A stretch of DNA of 64,000 nt from an uncultured virus (IMG/VR IMGVR_UViG_3300042865_001090) (IMGVR_UViG_3300042865_001090); one strand, 5' to 3'; positions 42,575-45,899 are shown, numbered from the stretch's first letter. Numbers and translations: made by a program. The notes: generated by a model not told the origin, from the sequence alone.

Positions 42575-43129
42575 TCAACGGTCCTGATTTGGTGGCTTCT
42601 CTAACACGATTTTGTCAGATGATTTTGCAGGTGCTTCGATTGGAACCCACGCACTCGAGTAGACGTGCTCTTTAACCTTGCGCATTTTAACCAGTGAACC
42701 GTCGAGCATCATGTCGGATTCCTGAACGGTCATATTGAAAATCTCGTCTAGTTCATCCATCGAATAAACTCTACTTTGATGTATCTTCTTGACAATGTCG
42801 GACATCCGTTTTGCAACAACCGAACCGCGACCTCGATTTATTTGGACGTGAAGAATCATCGCGTCCAAATCTGATACGTCCAATTCGACGCAGGTGATTG
42901 ATTTTGAGTACCGCTTGGCTAGCGCCTTGGATTGAGATATTGCAATCACTCTTTGATGGCCATCAATTATCACGTTTGATTTTTTCTGCACAATGATTGG
43001 GCTTAAAAGTCCGTATTTTTCGATTGAAGAAATAAGCACTTTAAGGTCAGGCTTGAGAATATAATTTGCCCTCCATGTAGCCGGCTTCAGCAAAGAAGGA
43101 TTAATTAAAGATGTTTCTGTGTTATTCAC
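42575..43129 (-). CDS. ParB/Srx N-terminal domain protein (IbrB-like)
   Basis: SIEKYGLLSPIIV, IIDGHQR, INRGRG. Confidence 0.8.
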   Translation of the reverse strand: MNNTETSLINPSLLKPATWRANYILKPDLKVLISSIEKYGLLSPIIVQKKSNVIIDGHQRVIAISQSKALAKRYSKSITCVELDVSDLDAMILHVQINRGRGSVVAKRMSDIVKKIHQSRVYSMDELDEIFNMTVQESDMMLDGSLVKMRKVKEHVYSSAWVPIEAPAKSSDKIVLEKPPNQDR

Positions 43130-43131
43130 TT

Positions 43132-43482
43132 CTAAACCTGGGCGCGGACATTGGCGTTGAGGGTTCGCAAGGCATCAATACTCGTCCTGAGTGAAAGAAG
43201 TTTTTCTCGCTTTGCCCTAACTAGTGCTTCCGCGATTTCGTAATCCTCTTTCATTTGTTCCATCTTGTAATGAGACCATTGCTCTCTGTCGGTGATTGTT
43301 CTGTGCCCCTTGCCAGCAGCTCCTAGATATTCTTTTGCCCATTCCGCCTTGTACCTGGCGTCTTTTTTTGCAGCGTCCACGGCGAGTATTTCAAAGTTTT
43401 CAGTTTCTTTTTCGAGCAGGTCGAGCAGTCTCATCATTTCTCGTTCAATGTCCACCTGGCTGATTGGTTGACTTCTATTCAT
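43132..43482 (-). CDS. helical hypothetical protein
   Basis: Coiled-coil pattern, DALRTLNANVR C-terminus. Confidence 0.6.
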   Translation of the reverse strand: MNRSQPISQVDIEREMMRLLDLLEKETENFEILAVDAAKKDARYKAEWAKEYLGAAGKGHRTITDREQWSHYKMEQMKEDYEIAEALVRAKREKLLSLRTSIDALRTLNANVRAQV

Positions 43483-44005
43483 TTTCTATCCCTTCGAGTG
43501 GGGACCAGTCTATCTTCTCTAGCGCCGAGAGAGAAATGTTTGACCACTTATATTTTGCATTTCCAATTTTTGCCAAAACCATTTCTTCAAGAACCCACGC
43601 ATCGCACATATCATCAGCATGCCCCCCTTTCCAAACTATTCCCGTAATAGCTGATATTGCAGATATGACTTCTGACTTGCCAGCGTTCCCTTTGCCTGTG
43701 GCAAATTTTGCTCGACAAGTAGGAGGCACGATTATGTATGGAATATCAAGATTTAGCAAGGCAACCCTGACAACACCGCCAAGCTCCCCAATTGAGTGAG
43801 CCTGAGAATTTCTTGATGCAAAAGAATAACCCTCTATGGCTACCAATTGTATTTTGTTGGAAACCGCAATATTGCCAATTTCGCTGGCTATTTTCCTCAA
43901 TCTTTCAGCTCCAGATAAATCAAAAGAAAGATAACCAGCTTCTCCAGCATGGCAATACCCAGTGGATGTAAGTGATAGGTCGAGACCTAGGATGTTCATG
44001 GGCAC
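43475..44005 (-). CDS. ruvC: RuvC-like Holliday junction resolvase
   Basis: ILGLDLSLTSTG, VAIEG, ELGGVVR, KFATGKGNAGK, DDMCDA catalytic pattern. Confidence 0.85.
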   Translation of the reverse strand: MPMNILGLDLSLTSTGYCHAGEAGYLSFDLSGAERLRKIASEIGNIAVSNKIQLVAIEGYSFASRNSQAHSIGELGGVVRVALLNLDIPYIIVPPTCRAKFATGKGNAGKSEVISAISAITGIVWKGGHADDMCDAWVLEEMVLAKIGNAKYKWSNISLSALEKIDWSPLEGIENE

Positions 44006-44022
44006 GCAAAACTCTACCCCAC

Positions 44023-44055
44023 AAACAAAGACCCGCCGGGTGTAATCCCGACGGG
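44023..44055 (-). terminator. intrinsic terminator of RNA B
   Basis: CCCGUCGGG-AUUACA-CCCGGCGGG followed by UCUUUGUUU. Confidence 0.7.
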
Positions 44056-44149
44056 AATTAACACAGACAGACGTCCATGTCTACTTTGCGTAGTTATTCA
44101 CCACTAGACCTTGGACCACCTGCCTTTCTTTTCTCAGAAACGGCTGTAA
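44023..44149 (-). ncRNA. predicted structured small RNA B containing a complement of the 16S rRNA 3' tail
   Basis: TGnTACTCT extended -10 at 44156-44164; AGAAAGGCAGGUGGUCCA (44112-44129); long stem AGGCAGGU(G)GUCCA / UGGACGUCUGUCU with inner GUCUA/UAGAC and GUGGU/ACUAC; own terminator. Confidence 0.6.
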
Positions 44150-44208
44150 GACCTTAGAGTACCATTACAAAATTATTAGCTCAGGTAAAGAGATGTTGGC
44201 GCGCACAT

Positions 44209-44269
44209 AAAAAAAGAGACGCAAGAACCGGGGGCTGCACGTTGCCCTGTGCCCCCGGCCCTCGCGCCT
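44209..44269 (-). terminator. long GC-rich hairpin plus U7 (terminator/scaffold of RNA A)
   Basis: AGGCGCGAGGGCCGGGGGC pairs with GCCCCCGGUUCUUGCGUCU; the G.U pairs work only on the minus strand. Confidence 0.75.
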
Positions 44270-44286
44270 ATAACGGTCCTAAGGAT
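44209..44286 (-). ncRNA. predicted small RNA A with a 5' segment antisense to 23S rRNA helix 69/70
   Basis: TAGAAT -10 at 44291-44296; 5' CCUUAGGACCGUUAUAG (44268-44284); 19-bp stem with 4 G.U pairs (44217-44269); U7 tail. Confidence 0.7.
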
Positions 44287-44336
44287 ATTAATTCTACAAC
44301 TGAAATGTCTTTCGTGTTGTAAACGCAAGTAATGTT

Positions 44337-44639
44337 TTAACGTTCCCAGCCGTGCTTGGCTAAACCTAAATCAAAAGCAAGCTGCGGATAGTTTCCAATT
44401 CGATTGTGACATGGCCTGCATACCGCAAGAAGATTTTCCTCATCGAGTATCGACCCACCCTGAGAGCGTCTAATTATTTCGTGAATGTCGCAACTTCTGT
44501 TACGAACATATGTCAACTTCTCGTCATGTTCAGCAAATACAGGACACGCTTCGCAAAATGGTTTTTTTGACAAAAGTTTTTCTACGAGCGGGCGCCTCAG
44601 CAAATACTCTTCTTGTTTCTTTTTTGAACGATATTTCAC
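44337..44639 (-). CDS. small zinc-binding HNH endonuclease-like protein
   Basis: CEAC...DIHEIIRRSQGG...ENLLAVCRPCHNRI. Confidence 0.8.
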   Translation of the reverse strand: MKYRSKKKQEEYLLRRPLVEKLLSKKPFCEACPVFAEHDEKLTYVRNRSCDIHEIIRRSQGGSILDEENLLAVCRPCHNRIGNYPQLAFDLGLAKHGWER

Positions 44640-45121
44640 TCAGGAGATGTTACATCGTCGAACTGCCATTTATTTTCTAACGATGCCCACAGGGCGACAT
44701 CGATGTCGGTTGGCTCCATGTCGAACTCATCCATTAGTGACTTGTGCTTCAAGATTGCTGACTCAAGGAAATTGGCACGAGAGAGTGCGCCCTCGTCTTC
44801 GCCCAAGGAGACAACGTAATCGAGACGCTTGTTAACAAAGAACCTGAAGCGTTCAATTTTTGCTAGCCTGCCGTCGTAAGATTGCATTGCTTCGGCTAGC
44901 AGTACCGTGCCGTCGGAACCCAAATCCGCGTATCTCTGGGAATCAAGTTCTTTATCGTCTTTGATGTCAGCAATTTGCTCATCAAGGTTCCGCACCAGCG
45001 CGAGAAGGGCTCGCTTCCAACGCTCGCGATTTTGGGGCAAATGAATGTATTCGCTCTGTGTGTCTGATACTCGGTTTTTAACATCCTCTGCAACAAGGCG
45101 AGCAAACATATCATCATTCAT
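44636..45121 (-). CDS. helical hypothetical protein
   Basis: Start reassigned to MNDDMFARL, overlapping the upstream stop. Confidence 0.6.
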   Translation of the reverse strand: MNDDMFARLVAEDVKNRVSDTQSEYIHLPQNRERWKRALLALVRNLDEQIADIKDDKELDSQRYADLGSDGTVLLAEAMQSYDGRLAKIERFRFFVNKRLDYVVSLGEDEGALSRANFLESAILKHKSLMDEFDMEPTDIDVALWASLENKWQFDDVTSPE

Positions 45122-45899
45122 CTTTTGGGTTCCAATATGTACAGAGATTTGTTTTGAAGTGGCACCAATTGCAGAGGTTTGATGGAATTGCTGTCCATGT
45201 TGAATTGTCATATGAATTTACTATCTCCTTCTTTGTTGTTGTTATTGTATTTCTTGTGCTTACAAAATCATCTGCCGTTGGCAAATGTTTTTTCGCAACA
45301 CCATCTTTTAGGTATAAAAGCTCCAGATTGAATGATTTCTTATTCTCTAGTTCGGCAAGAAGAATCGCGTACAGGCTGAGCTGAAACCATTTATCCGCCA
45401 TGTACTTGGGTGCTGGGGTTTTCCCCGTTTTGTAGTCCGTGATTGTCACAACCCCATCGATTTCCGTCCACCTGTCGATGAATCCCTTAATAAGAACGCC
45501 ATCTATCTCGCCAAGGACTTCGTATTCAATACCAGAAGGCTGAACCAGAGACGGGTTTTCAAGAAGGAAAATGTTCTCCACGCACCACCATGCGCTCCAT
45601 CGAAAATCGTTGATTGGCGTTCTCTTCAGATAAGGGGCAACCCTGTCTGCCCAACCGCCACTGGACCATACGTGAGTACATGCGTGTCGAGCAGACACAA
45701 CAGTCCTCTCTTCCGGCTGATAGGCGGCGTAGAAATGCTCCAGCACATCGTGTACGAAATTTCCCAACAATGTCTGCATCGTTGGCGGCTCTTGAATTTT
45801 GTCGACACGAGACAGCTTAAACTTCAGCGGACACTGAATGTACGTTTGAATTGACGAAGCTGAAAGGTGTGCTGGAAGCTCTGGTTTTACATCGCTCAC
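45114..45899 (-). CDS. PD-(D/E)XK exonuclease (RecB/Cas4-like)
   Basis: LSASSI..Y..CP, GNFVHDVLE, GFIDR, ITDYKTGK, QLSLY, CNWC...C; GTG start overlapping the Sak stop. Confidence 0.85.
   Translation of the reverse strand: MSDVKPELPAHLSASSIQTYIQCPLKFKLSRVDKIQEPPTMQTLLGNFVHDVLEHFYAAYQPEERTVVSARHACTHVWSSGGWADRVAPYLKRTPINDFRWSAWWCVENIFLLENPSLVQPSGIEYEVLGEIDGVLIKGFIDRWTEIDGVVTITDYKTGKTPAPKYMADKWFQLSLYAILLAELENKKSFNLELLYLKDGVAKKHLPTADDFVSTRNTITTTKKEIVNSYDNSTWTAIPSNLCNWCHFKTNLCTYWNPKDE

What the first reader, a model, noticed from the sequence alone, without database searches (positions are those of the whole stretch)
44209..44296. Phage small RNA whose 5' end is perfectly antisense to 23S rRNA helix 69/70
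Seen: plus strand 44268-44284 reads CTATAACGGTCCTAAGG. On the minus (operon) strand the layout is TAGAAT, 6 nt, CCUUAGGACCGUUAUAG, a 19-bp hairpin whose four G.U pairs fix the strand, then U7. This looks like a self-contained ~75-nt transcript that starts at the complementary segment. Established: the 17-mer equals E. coli-numbered 23S C1914-G1930 (H69 loop and 3' strand into H70), which forms intersubunit bridge B2a, carries pseudouridines 1915/1917 and is the core of the I-CeuI site. Inference: a guide-plus-scaffold RNA that invades H69 to block subunit joining, 50S maturation or recycling, or that recruits a nuclease or modifier. By my rough arithmetic, a 17-nt match to any rRNA position in a window this size has a chance of a few percent. 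The case therefore rests on the match sitting at a predicted TSS, in an intergenic gap, against a functional hotspot.
Basis: partly seen in the sequence, partly recalled or inferred. Interest (0 to 1): 0.92.

Follow-up and report, generated by a model that had tools for sequence, protein, structure and literature searches.

The report
Phage small RNA antisense to 23S
A large lake phage of actinobacteria carries a tiny, conserved RNA gene whose free front end mirrors helix 69 of the large ribosomal RNA, so the phage probably acts on host ribosomes by RNA pairing, which is undescribed and untested.

Summary
The 17-mer is not a chance match beside a terminator. It is the invariant core of a phage-only RNA family. 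At least 106 of 118 IMG/VR loci holding the 17-mer carry it. So do 41 of 80 loci chosen only by the neighbouring RuvC gene. None was found in 185,579 bacterial species genomes or in Rfam. The anatomy is a TAnnnT -10 box, about 6 nt, the 17-nt segment complementary to 23S 1914-1930, then directly a 17-19-bp hairpin. Thirteen of 14 stem pairs show compensatory change, and the G.U pairs fix the strand. In relatives the complementary stretch lengthens or shifts along 23S. One sub-lineage changes exactly the two guide bases that face the two bases distinguishing the actinobacterial helix 69 from the common one. A second RNA 120 nt downstream complements the 16S 3' tail.

Main caveat: the phage is an actinophage (two whiB genes), and many actinobacteria have the other helix-69 type, which leaves two central mismatches. 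Its host's type is unknown. No transcript or binding data exist.

This scan found the same class before on other DNA (at least 25 genomes). I found no paper describing it.

The parts
44318..44323 (-). TTTACA, a possible upstream promoter element, 21 nt before the -10 box
   Evidence: Read. The same TTTAC(A/C)-N21-22-TAnnnT layout precedes the neighbouring sRNA B (TTTACC 44189-44184). Consensus only; the promoter scan did not list it because the spacer is too long for a sigma-70 rule.
44291..44296 (-). -10-like box TAGAAT (TAnnnT)
   Evidence: TAnnnT lies 6 nt upstream of the 17-mer in 45 of 68 distinct family members, 7 nt upstream in 4, and 21 nt upstream in 7. That TAnnnT is the actinobacterial -10 type is my own knowledge.
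44268..44284 (-). 17-nt single-stranded segment CCUUAGGACCGUUAUAG, complementary to 23S rRNA 1914-1930 (helix 69 loop, its 3' strand, and the link to helix 70)
   Evidence: establish the identity. It is unpaired in the centroid and minimum-energy folds except for the last 2 nt. Mean column identity is 0.92 in 24 distinct elements found through RuvC alone. The duplex with 23S is -29.2 kcal/mol, against -6.4 for helix 69 itself.
44219..44267 (-). Hairpin with a 17-bp lower stem (four G.U pairs) and a 15-nt apical part; the stem starts directly after the 17-mer
   Evidence: Fold. In 45 aligned relatives the 14 lower pairs are 94.1% paired, and 13 of 14 pairs show changes on both sides. None of 500 shuffles reached the observed percentage paired or covariation score, and slid partners gave 35-59% paired. 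The first stem pair abuts the guide in 45 of 45 sequences.
44209..44215 (-). U7 tract: with the hairpin, an intrinsic terminator and the likely 3' end of a ~76-nt RNA
   Evidence: The covariance-model hit covers 44197-44296 on the minus strand (76.1 bits, E 1e-17). A U-rich tail follows the hairpin in only 19 of 68 family members.
44022..44161 (-). Neighbouring sRNA B: -10 TACTCT at 44161-44156, core AGAAAGGCAGGUGGUCC at 44129-44113 complementary to the 16S 3' tail, and a terminator hairpin at 44055-44032 followed by a T-run
   Evidence: Coordinates, terminator. Twelve relatives share invariant TG.TA...T and GGC.GGTGGTC. The duplex with the 16S tail GGAUCACCUCCUUUCU is -28.5 kcal/mol; that tail is present in 38 of 39 rrn loci carrying an actinobacterial 16S signature.
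44337..44639 (-). Upstream gene: 100-aa HNH endonuclease
   Evidence: Pfam HNH, E 2.7e-05. Context only: the RNA also occurs without it.
43475..44005 (-). Downstream gene: 176-aa RuvC-like resolvase, used as the syntenic anchor
   Evidence: Pfam RuvC, E 2e-05. Of 80 RuvC-relative loci, 41 carry the RNA on the same strand.

Best explanation
The locus is a phage gene for a small RNA of about 76 nt ('sRNA A'). It has its own TAnnnT promoter. Transcription probably starts within 1-2 nt of C44284. The first 15-17 nt are unpaired, and a very stable hairpin plus U7 ends and protects the RNA. The unpaired segment is under selection for complementarity to 23S rRNA 1914-1930. I think it acts in trans by pairing with host 23S rRNA when that stretch is open. 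That means nascent 23S, late 50S assembly intermediates or free 50S, and not 70S. Pairing would stop helix 69 from forming or from making bridge B2a, so those 50S particles are kept out of 70S formation. Its neighbour sRNA B would mask the 16S 3' tail in the same way. What is shown: the sequence, its conservation, the RNA-level covariation, the phage-only distribution, and complementarity that lengthens, shifts and in one lineage switches with the helix-69 type. What is inferred: that it is transcribed, that it binds rRNA, and the outcome. My odds: real RNA gene 0.9; complementarity to 23S is the selected property 0.75; the effect is loss of 50S function 0.4.
For: (1) Conservation. In 106 of these 118 loci, and 50 of 57 distinct sequences, the hairpin starts immediately after it. 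In the set found through RuvC protein alone, 41 of 80 loci carry the element, and identity is 0.92 in the 17-mer, 0.49 upstream and 0.71 in the stem. RuvC itself is only 54-64% identical in most of these phages. (2) RNA strand. Thirteen of 14 stem pairs have compensatory changes and G.U pairs are abundant. (3) Own unit. The -10 box sits at a fixed distance, and the element is a ~142-nt present/absent cassette. (4) 23S as partner. A second, unrelated WhiB-bearing phage group has the same guide-plus-hairpin, and one member (L064) extends the match to 27 nt (1914-1940) with a single G.U. L129 shifts the match to 1921-1936. The L163 lineage (5 contigs, 3 distinct hairpins) has TG for CC opposite 1921/1922 and pairs better with the actinobacterial helix 69, -32.5 against -28.8 kcal/mol. 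A further 67 distinct phage sequences carry antisense pieces to 1914-1941, 1942-1960 and 1962-1978. (5) Energetics. The duplex is -29.2 kcal/mol against -6.4 for helix 69; the best 16S site is -16.5; no target in the phage genome exceeds 9 nt. (6) The neighbouring sRNA B complements the 16S tail. (7) A synthetic PNA against H69 blocks translation and growth of E. coli (Kulik 2017, as described in PMC12828698, passage).
Against: There is no transcript evidence: no RNA run was listed. There is no binding data. The host is an actinobacterium. The phage has two whiB genes, and its TerL is nearest to Gordonia and Brevibacterium phages. Many actinobacteria have the other helix 69, as shown by the HGC69a probe and the M. 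smegmatis U2132:A2146 pair. Against that type the window's guide has two central mismatches, -19.3 kcal/mol. Guides of exactly the actinobacterial type are almost absent from phages: 2 non-RNA-like hits and 0 hits in two scans. Substitutions in the guide are not clearly biased to wobble: 7 are wobble-compatible and 15 are mismatches. Variants with C at guide position 12 are not matched by host rRNA, since G1919 occurs in only 3 of 185,579 species. Only 19 of 68 members have a U-rich tail, and in many the element sits about 20 nt before the RuvC start. Mature helix 69 is folded and modified, so access is uncertain.
Confidence: 0.45

Rival explanations
1. The RNA does pair with 23S rRNA (and sRNA B with 16S), but it protects or marks the rRNA and does not disable it. 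It might shield interface rRNA of free subunits from host rRNA-cutting toxins or RNases set off by infection. Alternatively, it might recruit a double-strand-specific nuclease: the guide-target helix would stack on the abutting hairpin to give a helix of about 35 bp.
For: Actinobacterial MazF toxins cut exactly these two neighbourhoods. MazF-mt3 cuts helix/loop 70 of 23S and the 16S anti-Shine-Dalgarno sequence. MazF-mt6 cuts helix 70 in 50S but not in 70S (review PMC5408214, passages). sRNA B covers the CCUCCUUUCU tail. The hairpin abuts the guide with no spacer in 45 of 45 aligned members.
Against: The UUCCU toxin site lies at 1939-1943, which is outside the 17-mer. Few phage RNAs reach it: 8-9 of 67 distinct sequences cover 1939-1940 and 4 cover 1941. 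No nuclease or toxin link was tested here.
Confidence: 0.2
2. It is a cis-acting leader or intercistronic element of the RuvC/late operon, for example a protein-binding or processing site plus a stabilising hairpin. On this reading the resemblance to 23S is not what is selected, or it is used only in cis.
For: In the short form of the locus the hairpin ends about 20-40 nt before the RuvC start, with no room for another promoter. Forty-nine of 68 members lack a U-rich tail. The element is on the RuvC strand in 41 of 41 hits.
Against: The same guide-plus-hairpin occurs in a second phage group with no RuvC or HNH within 1.5 kb. In the window it has U7, and about 200 nt and another RNA gene separate it from RuvC. 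Lengthened, shifted and type-switched complementarity to 23S is not expected of a protein site.
Confidence: 0.15
3. It is a trans-acting small RNA whose real target is another host RNA (an mRNA, tRNA or other RNA) that shares part of this sequence.
For: This is the ordinary way base-pairing small RNAs work. If the host has the actinobacterial helix 69, the 23S match is imperfect.
Against: Seventeen to 27 nt of complementarity to one rRNA site is maintained in unrelated phage groups and RNA architectures. No host genome could be searched for alternative targets.
Confidence: 0.08
4. It is a DNA-level element: a homing-endonuclease or recombination site that copies the I-CeuI region of rDNA, perhaps used by the adjacent HNH enzyme.
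For: The plus strand holds the core of the I-CeuI site, and an HNH gene lies upstream.
Against: Orientation relative to the hairpin is fixed. The G.U pairs and compensatory changes show selection on one RNA strand. The element occurs without HNH, and HNH-RuvC loci occur without it in 39 of 80 cases.
Confidence: 0.03
5. It is an ordinary intrinsic terminator of the HNH gene that happens by chance to lie next to a 17-nt match to rRNA.
For: A GC-rich hairpin plus U7 lies 52 nt after the HNH stop codon. A single 17-mer match is expected 0.03 times per window.
Against: The 17-mer is the best-conserved part of the locus. It occurs at least 118 times against 4 for the control. It has its own -10 box. 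It comes and goes as a cassette together with that box.
Confidence: 0.02

Closest known systems
Trans-encoded base-pairing small RNAs with a 5' seed and terminator hairpin (RybB, OmrA/B type; own knowledge), and phage-encoded small RNAs such as the one in bioRxiv 10.1101/2024.10.31.621285 (search listing and start of abstract only)
   Same: Own promoter, a conserved single-stranded 5' segment, a terminal hairpin with a U-tail, and a size of about 75 nt.
   Different: The complementary partner is a functional centre of ribosomal RNA, not an mRNA. The match is 17-27 nt, not a 7-10-nt seed. The hosts are actinobacteria, which as far as I know lack Hfq.
Synthetic antisense against helix 69 (PNA of Kulik et al. 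2017, as described in PMC12828698, passage)
   Same: The same target helix. It shows that an antisense strand against H69 can block translation and growth.
   Different: It is man-made and peptide-delivered. No natural counterpart is reported there.
Guide RNAs that pair with rRNA in archaea and eukaryotes (C/D and H/ACA box RNAs; own knowledge)
   Same: A small RNA with an antisense element to rRNA, including the helix 69 region.
   Different: There is no UGAUGA or CUGA box and no pseudouridylation pocket in 44209-44296 (read). It is phage-encoded in bacteria, and no partner protein is known.
Actinobacterial rRNA-cutting toxins MazF-mt3 and MazF-mt6 (review PMC5408214, passages)
   Same: They act on the same two ribosomal neighbourhoods as sRNA A and sRNA B (23S helix 69-70 and the 16S 3' tail), and on free 50S rather than 70S.
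   Different: They are protein endonucleases of the host. Their 23S site (1939-1943) lies 9 nt beyond the 17-mer.
I-CeuI homing site in 23S rDNA (PMC2790883, passages)
   Same: The 17 bp are the core of the 26-bp site.
   Different: This is a DNA target of an intron-encoded enzyme. Here selection acts on an RNA strand, and no such enzyme is nearby.

Membership tests
Any Rfam 15 family | A match to a curated covariance model | tested here: not met
   There were no matches at gathering score in the whole window. At E up to 10 in 43950-44400 there was only noise, 11.5-19.4 bits. Twelve other anti-23S loci gave nothing except tRNAs and two weak sub-threshold sRNA matches, sbrA and PrrB/RsmZ, at E 0.26 and 0.38.
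Intrinsic (Rho-independent) terminator | A GC-rich hairpin followed directly by a U-tract | tested here: met
   A 17-19-bp stem plus U7. It is a terminator in form, but this does not account for the conserved 17-mer and the -10 box. Only 19 of 68 relatives keep a U-rich tail.
Trans-encoded base-pairing small RNA (5'-seed type) | Own promoter and a discrete transcript | tested here: inconclusive
   A -10 box lies at a fixed distance in 49 of 68 members, and the element behaves as a cassette. No RNA data exist.
Trans-encoded base-pairing small RNA (5'-seed type) | A conserved, unpaired seed complementary to a target | tested here: met
   Identity is 0.92 against 0.49 and 0.71 in the flanks. The segment is unpaired in the folds. 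It is complementary to 23S 1914-1930.
Trans-encoded base-pairing small RNA (5'-seed type) | Dependence on an RNA chaperone (Hfq or ProQ) | not testable with these tools
   The host is unknown. That actinobacteria lack Hfq is my own knowledge.
C/D box guide RNA | Boxes C (RUGAUGA) and D (CUGA) flanking the antisense element | tested here: not met
   Neither TGATGA nor CTGA occurs in the minus strand of 44209-44296 (read).
RNA-guided nuclease guide (IscB/TnpB-like omega RNA) | Obligate linkage to a large RuvC/HNH effector gene and a large scaffold | tested here: not met
   The neighbours are separate small proteins of 100 aa (HNH) and 176 aa (RuvC). The RNA occurs without them, and they occur without it in 39 of 80 loci. 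The scaffold is a single hairpin.
True 23S rRNA gene fragment | rRNA similarity continuing beyond the 17-mer | tested here: not met
   The match stops on both sides. Of the 10 odd loci scanned against Rfam, only L099 is LSU rRNA.

The most novel reading that the evidence does not exclude
Large phages of actinobacteria, and other aquatic and soil phages with differently built RNAs, carry RNAs that pair directly with the host ribosome's own RNA at its functional centres. The sites are helix 69-71 of 23S and, through a second RNA, the 16S 3' tail. The guide tracks the host's helix-69 type. This would be a class of host take-over or counter-defence in which the ribosome is addressed by RNA-rRNA base pairing rather than by proteins.
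Probability: 0.45. Interest if true: 0.92.

Novelty: new variant of a known kind. Interest (0 to 1): 0.85.

Why it matters
Phages are known to reshape host translation with proteins and with mRNA-targeting small RNAs. I found no report of a natural RNA, from phage or bacterium, aimed by base pairing at helix 69, the hub of subunit joining, decoding and recycling. If the pairing is real it would be a new route of ribosome control. It would also be a natural proof that this rRNA site can be reached by antisense strands, which matters for antisense antibacterials. It would give a simple sequence marker for predicting phage hosts from the helix-69 type. The family is large and easy to test with a 76-nt synthetic RNA.

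Tried and rejected
- BLAST of the 61-nt region against E. coli genomes gave no match because a 17-mer cannot reach significance. I used an exact pattern on K-12 rrlH instead.
- No DNA relative was found among 50,697 cultured phage records.
- RNA evidence: no RNA holder was listed for 43400-45300.
- Relatives of a virus record cannot be drawn, and metagenome contigs have no genome handle. I therefore could not search any host genome, nor test whether organisms with the canonical helix 69 carry whiB.
- Plasmid-borne 23S genes (642 records, 606 at 95% identity or more over 1881-1961) included no actinobacterium among the 60 rows listed (an earlier search listing 40 rows, showed none either).
- The exact actinobacterial-type guide gave 2 hits that are not RNA-like, and the extended form gave 0 hits.
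- Host-matched explanation of guide variants with C at position 12: rejected, since G1919 is present in only 3 species.
- Pairing between sRNA A and sRNA B: a 9-bp match exists in the window, but it is not conserved in the 12-sequence alignment.
- Targets inside the phage genome: nothing longer than 9 nt.
- Further long matches between the phage genome and 25 actinobacterial-signature rrn operons: four matches of 17 nt or more including this one, which is about the number expected by chance.
- Guide of an RNA-guided nuclease formed by the HNH and RuvC neighbours: rejected (see the membership test).
- sRNA B in the second phage group: not found in 8 loci.
- A Myxococcota sample had the exact target in 54 of 151 genomes and the reversed control in 0. 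The genomes without it are probably assemblies lacking rRNA genes, so this says little.

Full report
**The observation**

On the minus strand the window reads as follows.
- TAGAAT at 44296-44291, then TAATAT.
- CCTTAGGACCGTTATAG at 44284-44268.
- A stem in which 44267-44251 pairs with 44235-44219.
- T7 at 44215-44209.

The lower stem has 17 pairs, four of them G.U. The minimum-energy fold adds two pairs, giving 19. The energy is -41.6 kcal/mol, and none of 200 shuffles folded as well. The plus-strand 17-mer is identical to E. coli K-12 rrlH 1914-1930.

Alone, such a match is weak evidence. The expectation is 0.034 per window. In an exact-match scan of the whole 160,282-bp phage genome against E. 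coli rRNAs it is merely the top of a chance-like distribution, 17 followed by 15 and several 14s.

**Setting**

The window belongs to a 160-kb IMG/VR virus record. The element lies between a 100-aa HNH gene (44639-44337) and a 176-aa RuvC-like gene (44005-43475). Upstream on the same strand are a Rad52-like protein, a PD-(D/E)XK nuclease and the large terminase. Downstream are tail genes.

The phage has two whiB genes. whiB is the usual marker of actinophages (PMC6802176, passages). The nearest Atlas clusters for the WhiB protein are viral or Actinomycetota. The closest bacterial-phage terminases among cultured records are those of Gordonia and Brevibacterium phages, at 40-43% identity; two Methanobacterium phages score similarly.

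**Conservation**

The same letters read backwards occur in 4.
- In 106 of the 118 loci, and in 50 of 57 distinct sequences, a long hairpin starts directly after it. Of the other 12 loci, one is a true 23S fragment. The remaining 11 have longer matches to 23S in other contexts.
- An unbiased sample came from 80 loci fetched only by similarity to the RuvC protein. Seventeen have the exact 17-mer at the syntenic place. Eleven have one change, five have two, one has three and seven have four.
- A covariance model built from 45 sequences finds the element in 41 of the 80 loci, always on the RuvC strand, and exactly once in the window.
- Over the 24 distinct sequences of that set, mean column identity is 0.92 in the 17-mer, 0.49 in the 12 nt upstream and 0.71 in the stem.
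- The pattern with the start of the hairpin is absent from one genome of each of 185,579 bacterial and archaeal species. No Rfam family matches.

**Anatomy**

- The 14 lower stem pairs are 94.1% paired in 45 sequences, and 13 have changes on both sides. No shuffle reached the observed percentage paired or covariation score; sliding the partners gives only 35-59% paired.
- The many G.U pairs place the RNA on the strand that carries the antisense 17-mer.
- The first stem pair abuts the 17-mer in all 45 sequences.
- A TAnnnT box lies 6 nt upstream of the 17-mer in 45 of 68 distinct members and 7 nt upstream in 4. In the second phage group it lies 21 nt upstream in 7 members. TAnnnT is the actinobacterial -10 type (own knowledge).
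- The closest RuvC relatives (L122, L123, L125, L126; 74-81% identity) lack exactly a ~142-nt block holding the box, guide, hairpin and T-run, but keep everything downstream. The unit is therefore a separable cassette.

Against a uniform 'self-contained small RNA' reading: only 19 of 68 members have a U-rich tail. In a short form of the locus the hairpin ends about 20-40 nt before the RuvC start, so there the element may be the 5' part of the RuvC mRNA.

**Is 23S the selected partner?**

All hairpin-type copies could descend from one ancestor, so their number alone does not show this. Four other findings bear on it.
- A second phage group shares the guide-plus-hairpin. Its genes differ (zinc ribbon, ferredoxin, no RuvC), and its representative also carries whiB. 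Its members vary on the 5' side. L064 reads AAUUUCGUUA before the 17-mer, which gives 27 nt of complementarity to 1914-1940 with one G.U.
- In L129/L132 the match has shifted to 1921-1936 while the 3' part decayed.
- A scan for the antisense of 1922-1936 found 94 loci and 67 distinct non-rRNA sequences. Many have further antisense pieces to 1937-1941, 1942-1960 or 1962-1978 in quite different RNA contexts. A 15-mer has a chance background of roughly 60 hits by scaling, so only the extended ones count.
- The duplex of the 17-mer with 23S is -29.2 kcal/mol, against -6.4 for helix 69. The best site on 16S is -16.5. The phage genome holds no target longer than 9 nt.

One result does not help. Guide substitutions are not clearly biased to wobble: 7 are wobble-compatible and 15 are mismatches.

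**The helix-69 problem**

- The actinobacterial FISH probe HGC69a reads TATAGTTACCACCGCCGT (table in PMC4070681; used for freshwater Actinobacteria in PMC2810431). The 5' strand is therefore GGUGGU, not GGCCGU.
- M. smegmatis has a U2132:A2146 pair, where C2144 corresponds to C1920 (PMC9168844, passages).
- Actinobacteria are said not to be cut by I-CeuI (PMC2790883, passages).

Against this type the window's guide has two central mismatches, -19.3 kcal/mol.

I then sampled metagenome contigs carrying an actinobacterial 16S primer site. Twenty-five of 116 loci reach helix 69.
- Thirteen have GGTGGT..ACCATC.
- Ten have the common GGCCGT..ACGGTC.
- One has GGCGGT..ACCGTC.
- One is a regex artefact.

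On a 16S tree the 13 form one clade. It includes a sequence positive for the acI probe, and most of its members have a 100-190-nt 23S insertion. The common type sits on deeper branches. Eight of those 10 also carry a second actinobacterial 16S signature. Actinobacterial-signature organisms with the common helix 69 therefore exist, and this phage may infect one. That is an inference, not a result.

Exact actinobacterial-type guides are nearly absent from phages. One homologous sub-lineage is the exception: L163 and four further contigs, with three distinct hairpins. It reads UCGCUACCUGGGGAUGGUAUAG, with UG in place of CC exactly opposite 1921/1922. It pairs better with the actinobacterial type, -32.5 against -28.8 kcal/mol.

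**The neighbour**

It has these parts.
- A TACTCT box at 44161-44156.
- A core AGAAAGGCAGGUGGUCC at 44129-44113.
- A terminator at 44055-44032.

In 12 relatives TG.TA...T and GGC.GGTGGTC are invariant. The core pairs with the 16S tail GGAUCACCUCCUUUCU at -28.5 kcal/mol. That tail is present in 38 of 39 of the sampled rrn loci.

A B-like core follows sRNA A within 450 nt in 37 of 69 loci with enough sequence. It is not found in the second phage group. Each of the two RNAs also occurs alone.

**Mechanism**

I take sRNA A to be a trans-acting antisense RNA against 23S 1914-1930. It would act on RNA that is not locked in 70S, keeping helix 69 from forming or from making bridge B2a.
- A synthetic PNA against H69 blocks translation and growth (Kulik 2017 as described in PMC12828698, passage).
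- As far as I know, m3-pseudouridine 1915 is made late, on 70S, and would disturb pairing. This favours immature or free 50S as the target (inference).
- A protective role is a serious rival. Actinobacterial MazF toxins cut helix/loop 70 of 23S in free 50S and the 16S anti-Shine-Dalgarno tail (PMC5408214, passages). However, the 23S cut site at 1939-1943 lies outside the 17-mer and is covered by few phage RNAs.
- A cis-leader role remains possible for the short loci.

**Novelty**

Five literature searches on phage RNAs against 23S or helix 69 found no such report. One of them searched for the 17-mer itself in either orientation. It hit 42 papers, and the 20 listed concern I-CeuI cloning sites, primers and rRNA.

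Earlier notes of this scan describe the same class on other DNA, 27 findings in at least 25 genomes. These are unchecked notes and not independent evidence.

**Limits**

The host genome, the transcript ends and any binding are all unknown. Supplementary files were not consulted.

Noticed in passing
window 44022-44161 (-): A second small RNA gene (sRNA B). It has a TGnTAnnnT box, an invariant core GGCAGGUGGUC complementary to the 16S 3' tail with one bulge and one G.U, and its own terminator. It is kept even in close relatives that lack sRNA A.
   Followed up: partly
L210-L303 (IMG/VR loci): Many differently built phage sequences carry antisense matches to 23S 1914-1941 plus second pieces at 1942-1960 or 1962-1978. 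One large family looks like a condensed antisense copy of the region with helix 71 left out. Some lie next to tRNA genes. None matches Rfam.
   Followed up: partly
L306-L421 (metagenome rrn loci): Helix 69 comes in two types among organisms with actinobacterial 16S signatures: GGUGGU/ACCAUC and the common GGCCGU/ACGGUC, plus one intermediate GGCGGU/ACCGUC. The types follow the 16S tree, and the acI-probe-positive sequence has the actinobacterial type.
   Followed up: partly
L216 and L239 (IMG/VR): 23S-like sequence stops abruptly at about position 1920-1921 and continues as unrelated DNA. This looks like an insertion (intron or mobile element) at the classical homing site.
   Followed up: no
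L071/L114 and L026/L052/L101 (IMG/VR): Other contexts of the 17-mer. In one, a 23-nt antisense match plus a terminator overlaps the 3' end of a lysozyme gene on the opposite strand. In the other, the 17-mer and a terminator hairpin follow the end of a long reading frame ending in ...DPDCLSCDG.
   Followed up: no
L204 1429-2404 (own genome, about 142.5-143.5 kb): One of the two whiB genes lies next to a 231-aa gene whose N-terminus looks like a proteasome/HslV-type Ntn hydrolase. I did not run it against any family library.
   Followed up: no
window 42575-43129 (-) and 43132-43482 (-): Two conserved genes just downstream of RuvC (184 aa and 116 aa) have no Pfam match. They travel with RuvC in the related loci.
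   Followed up: no
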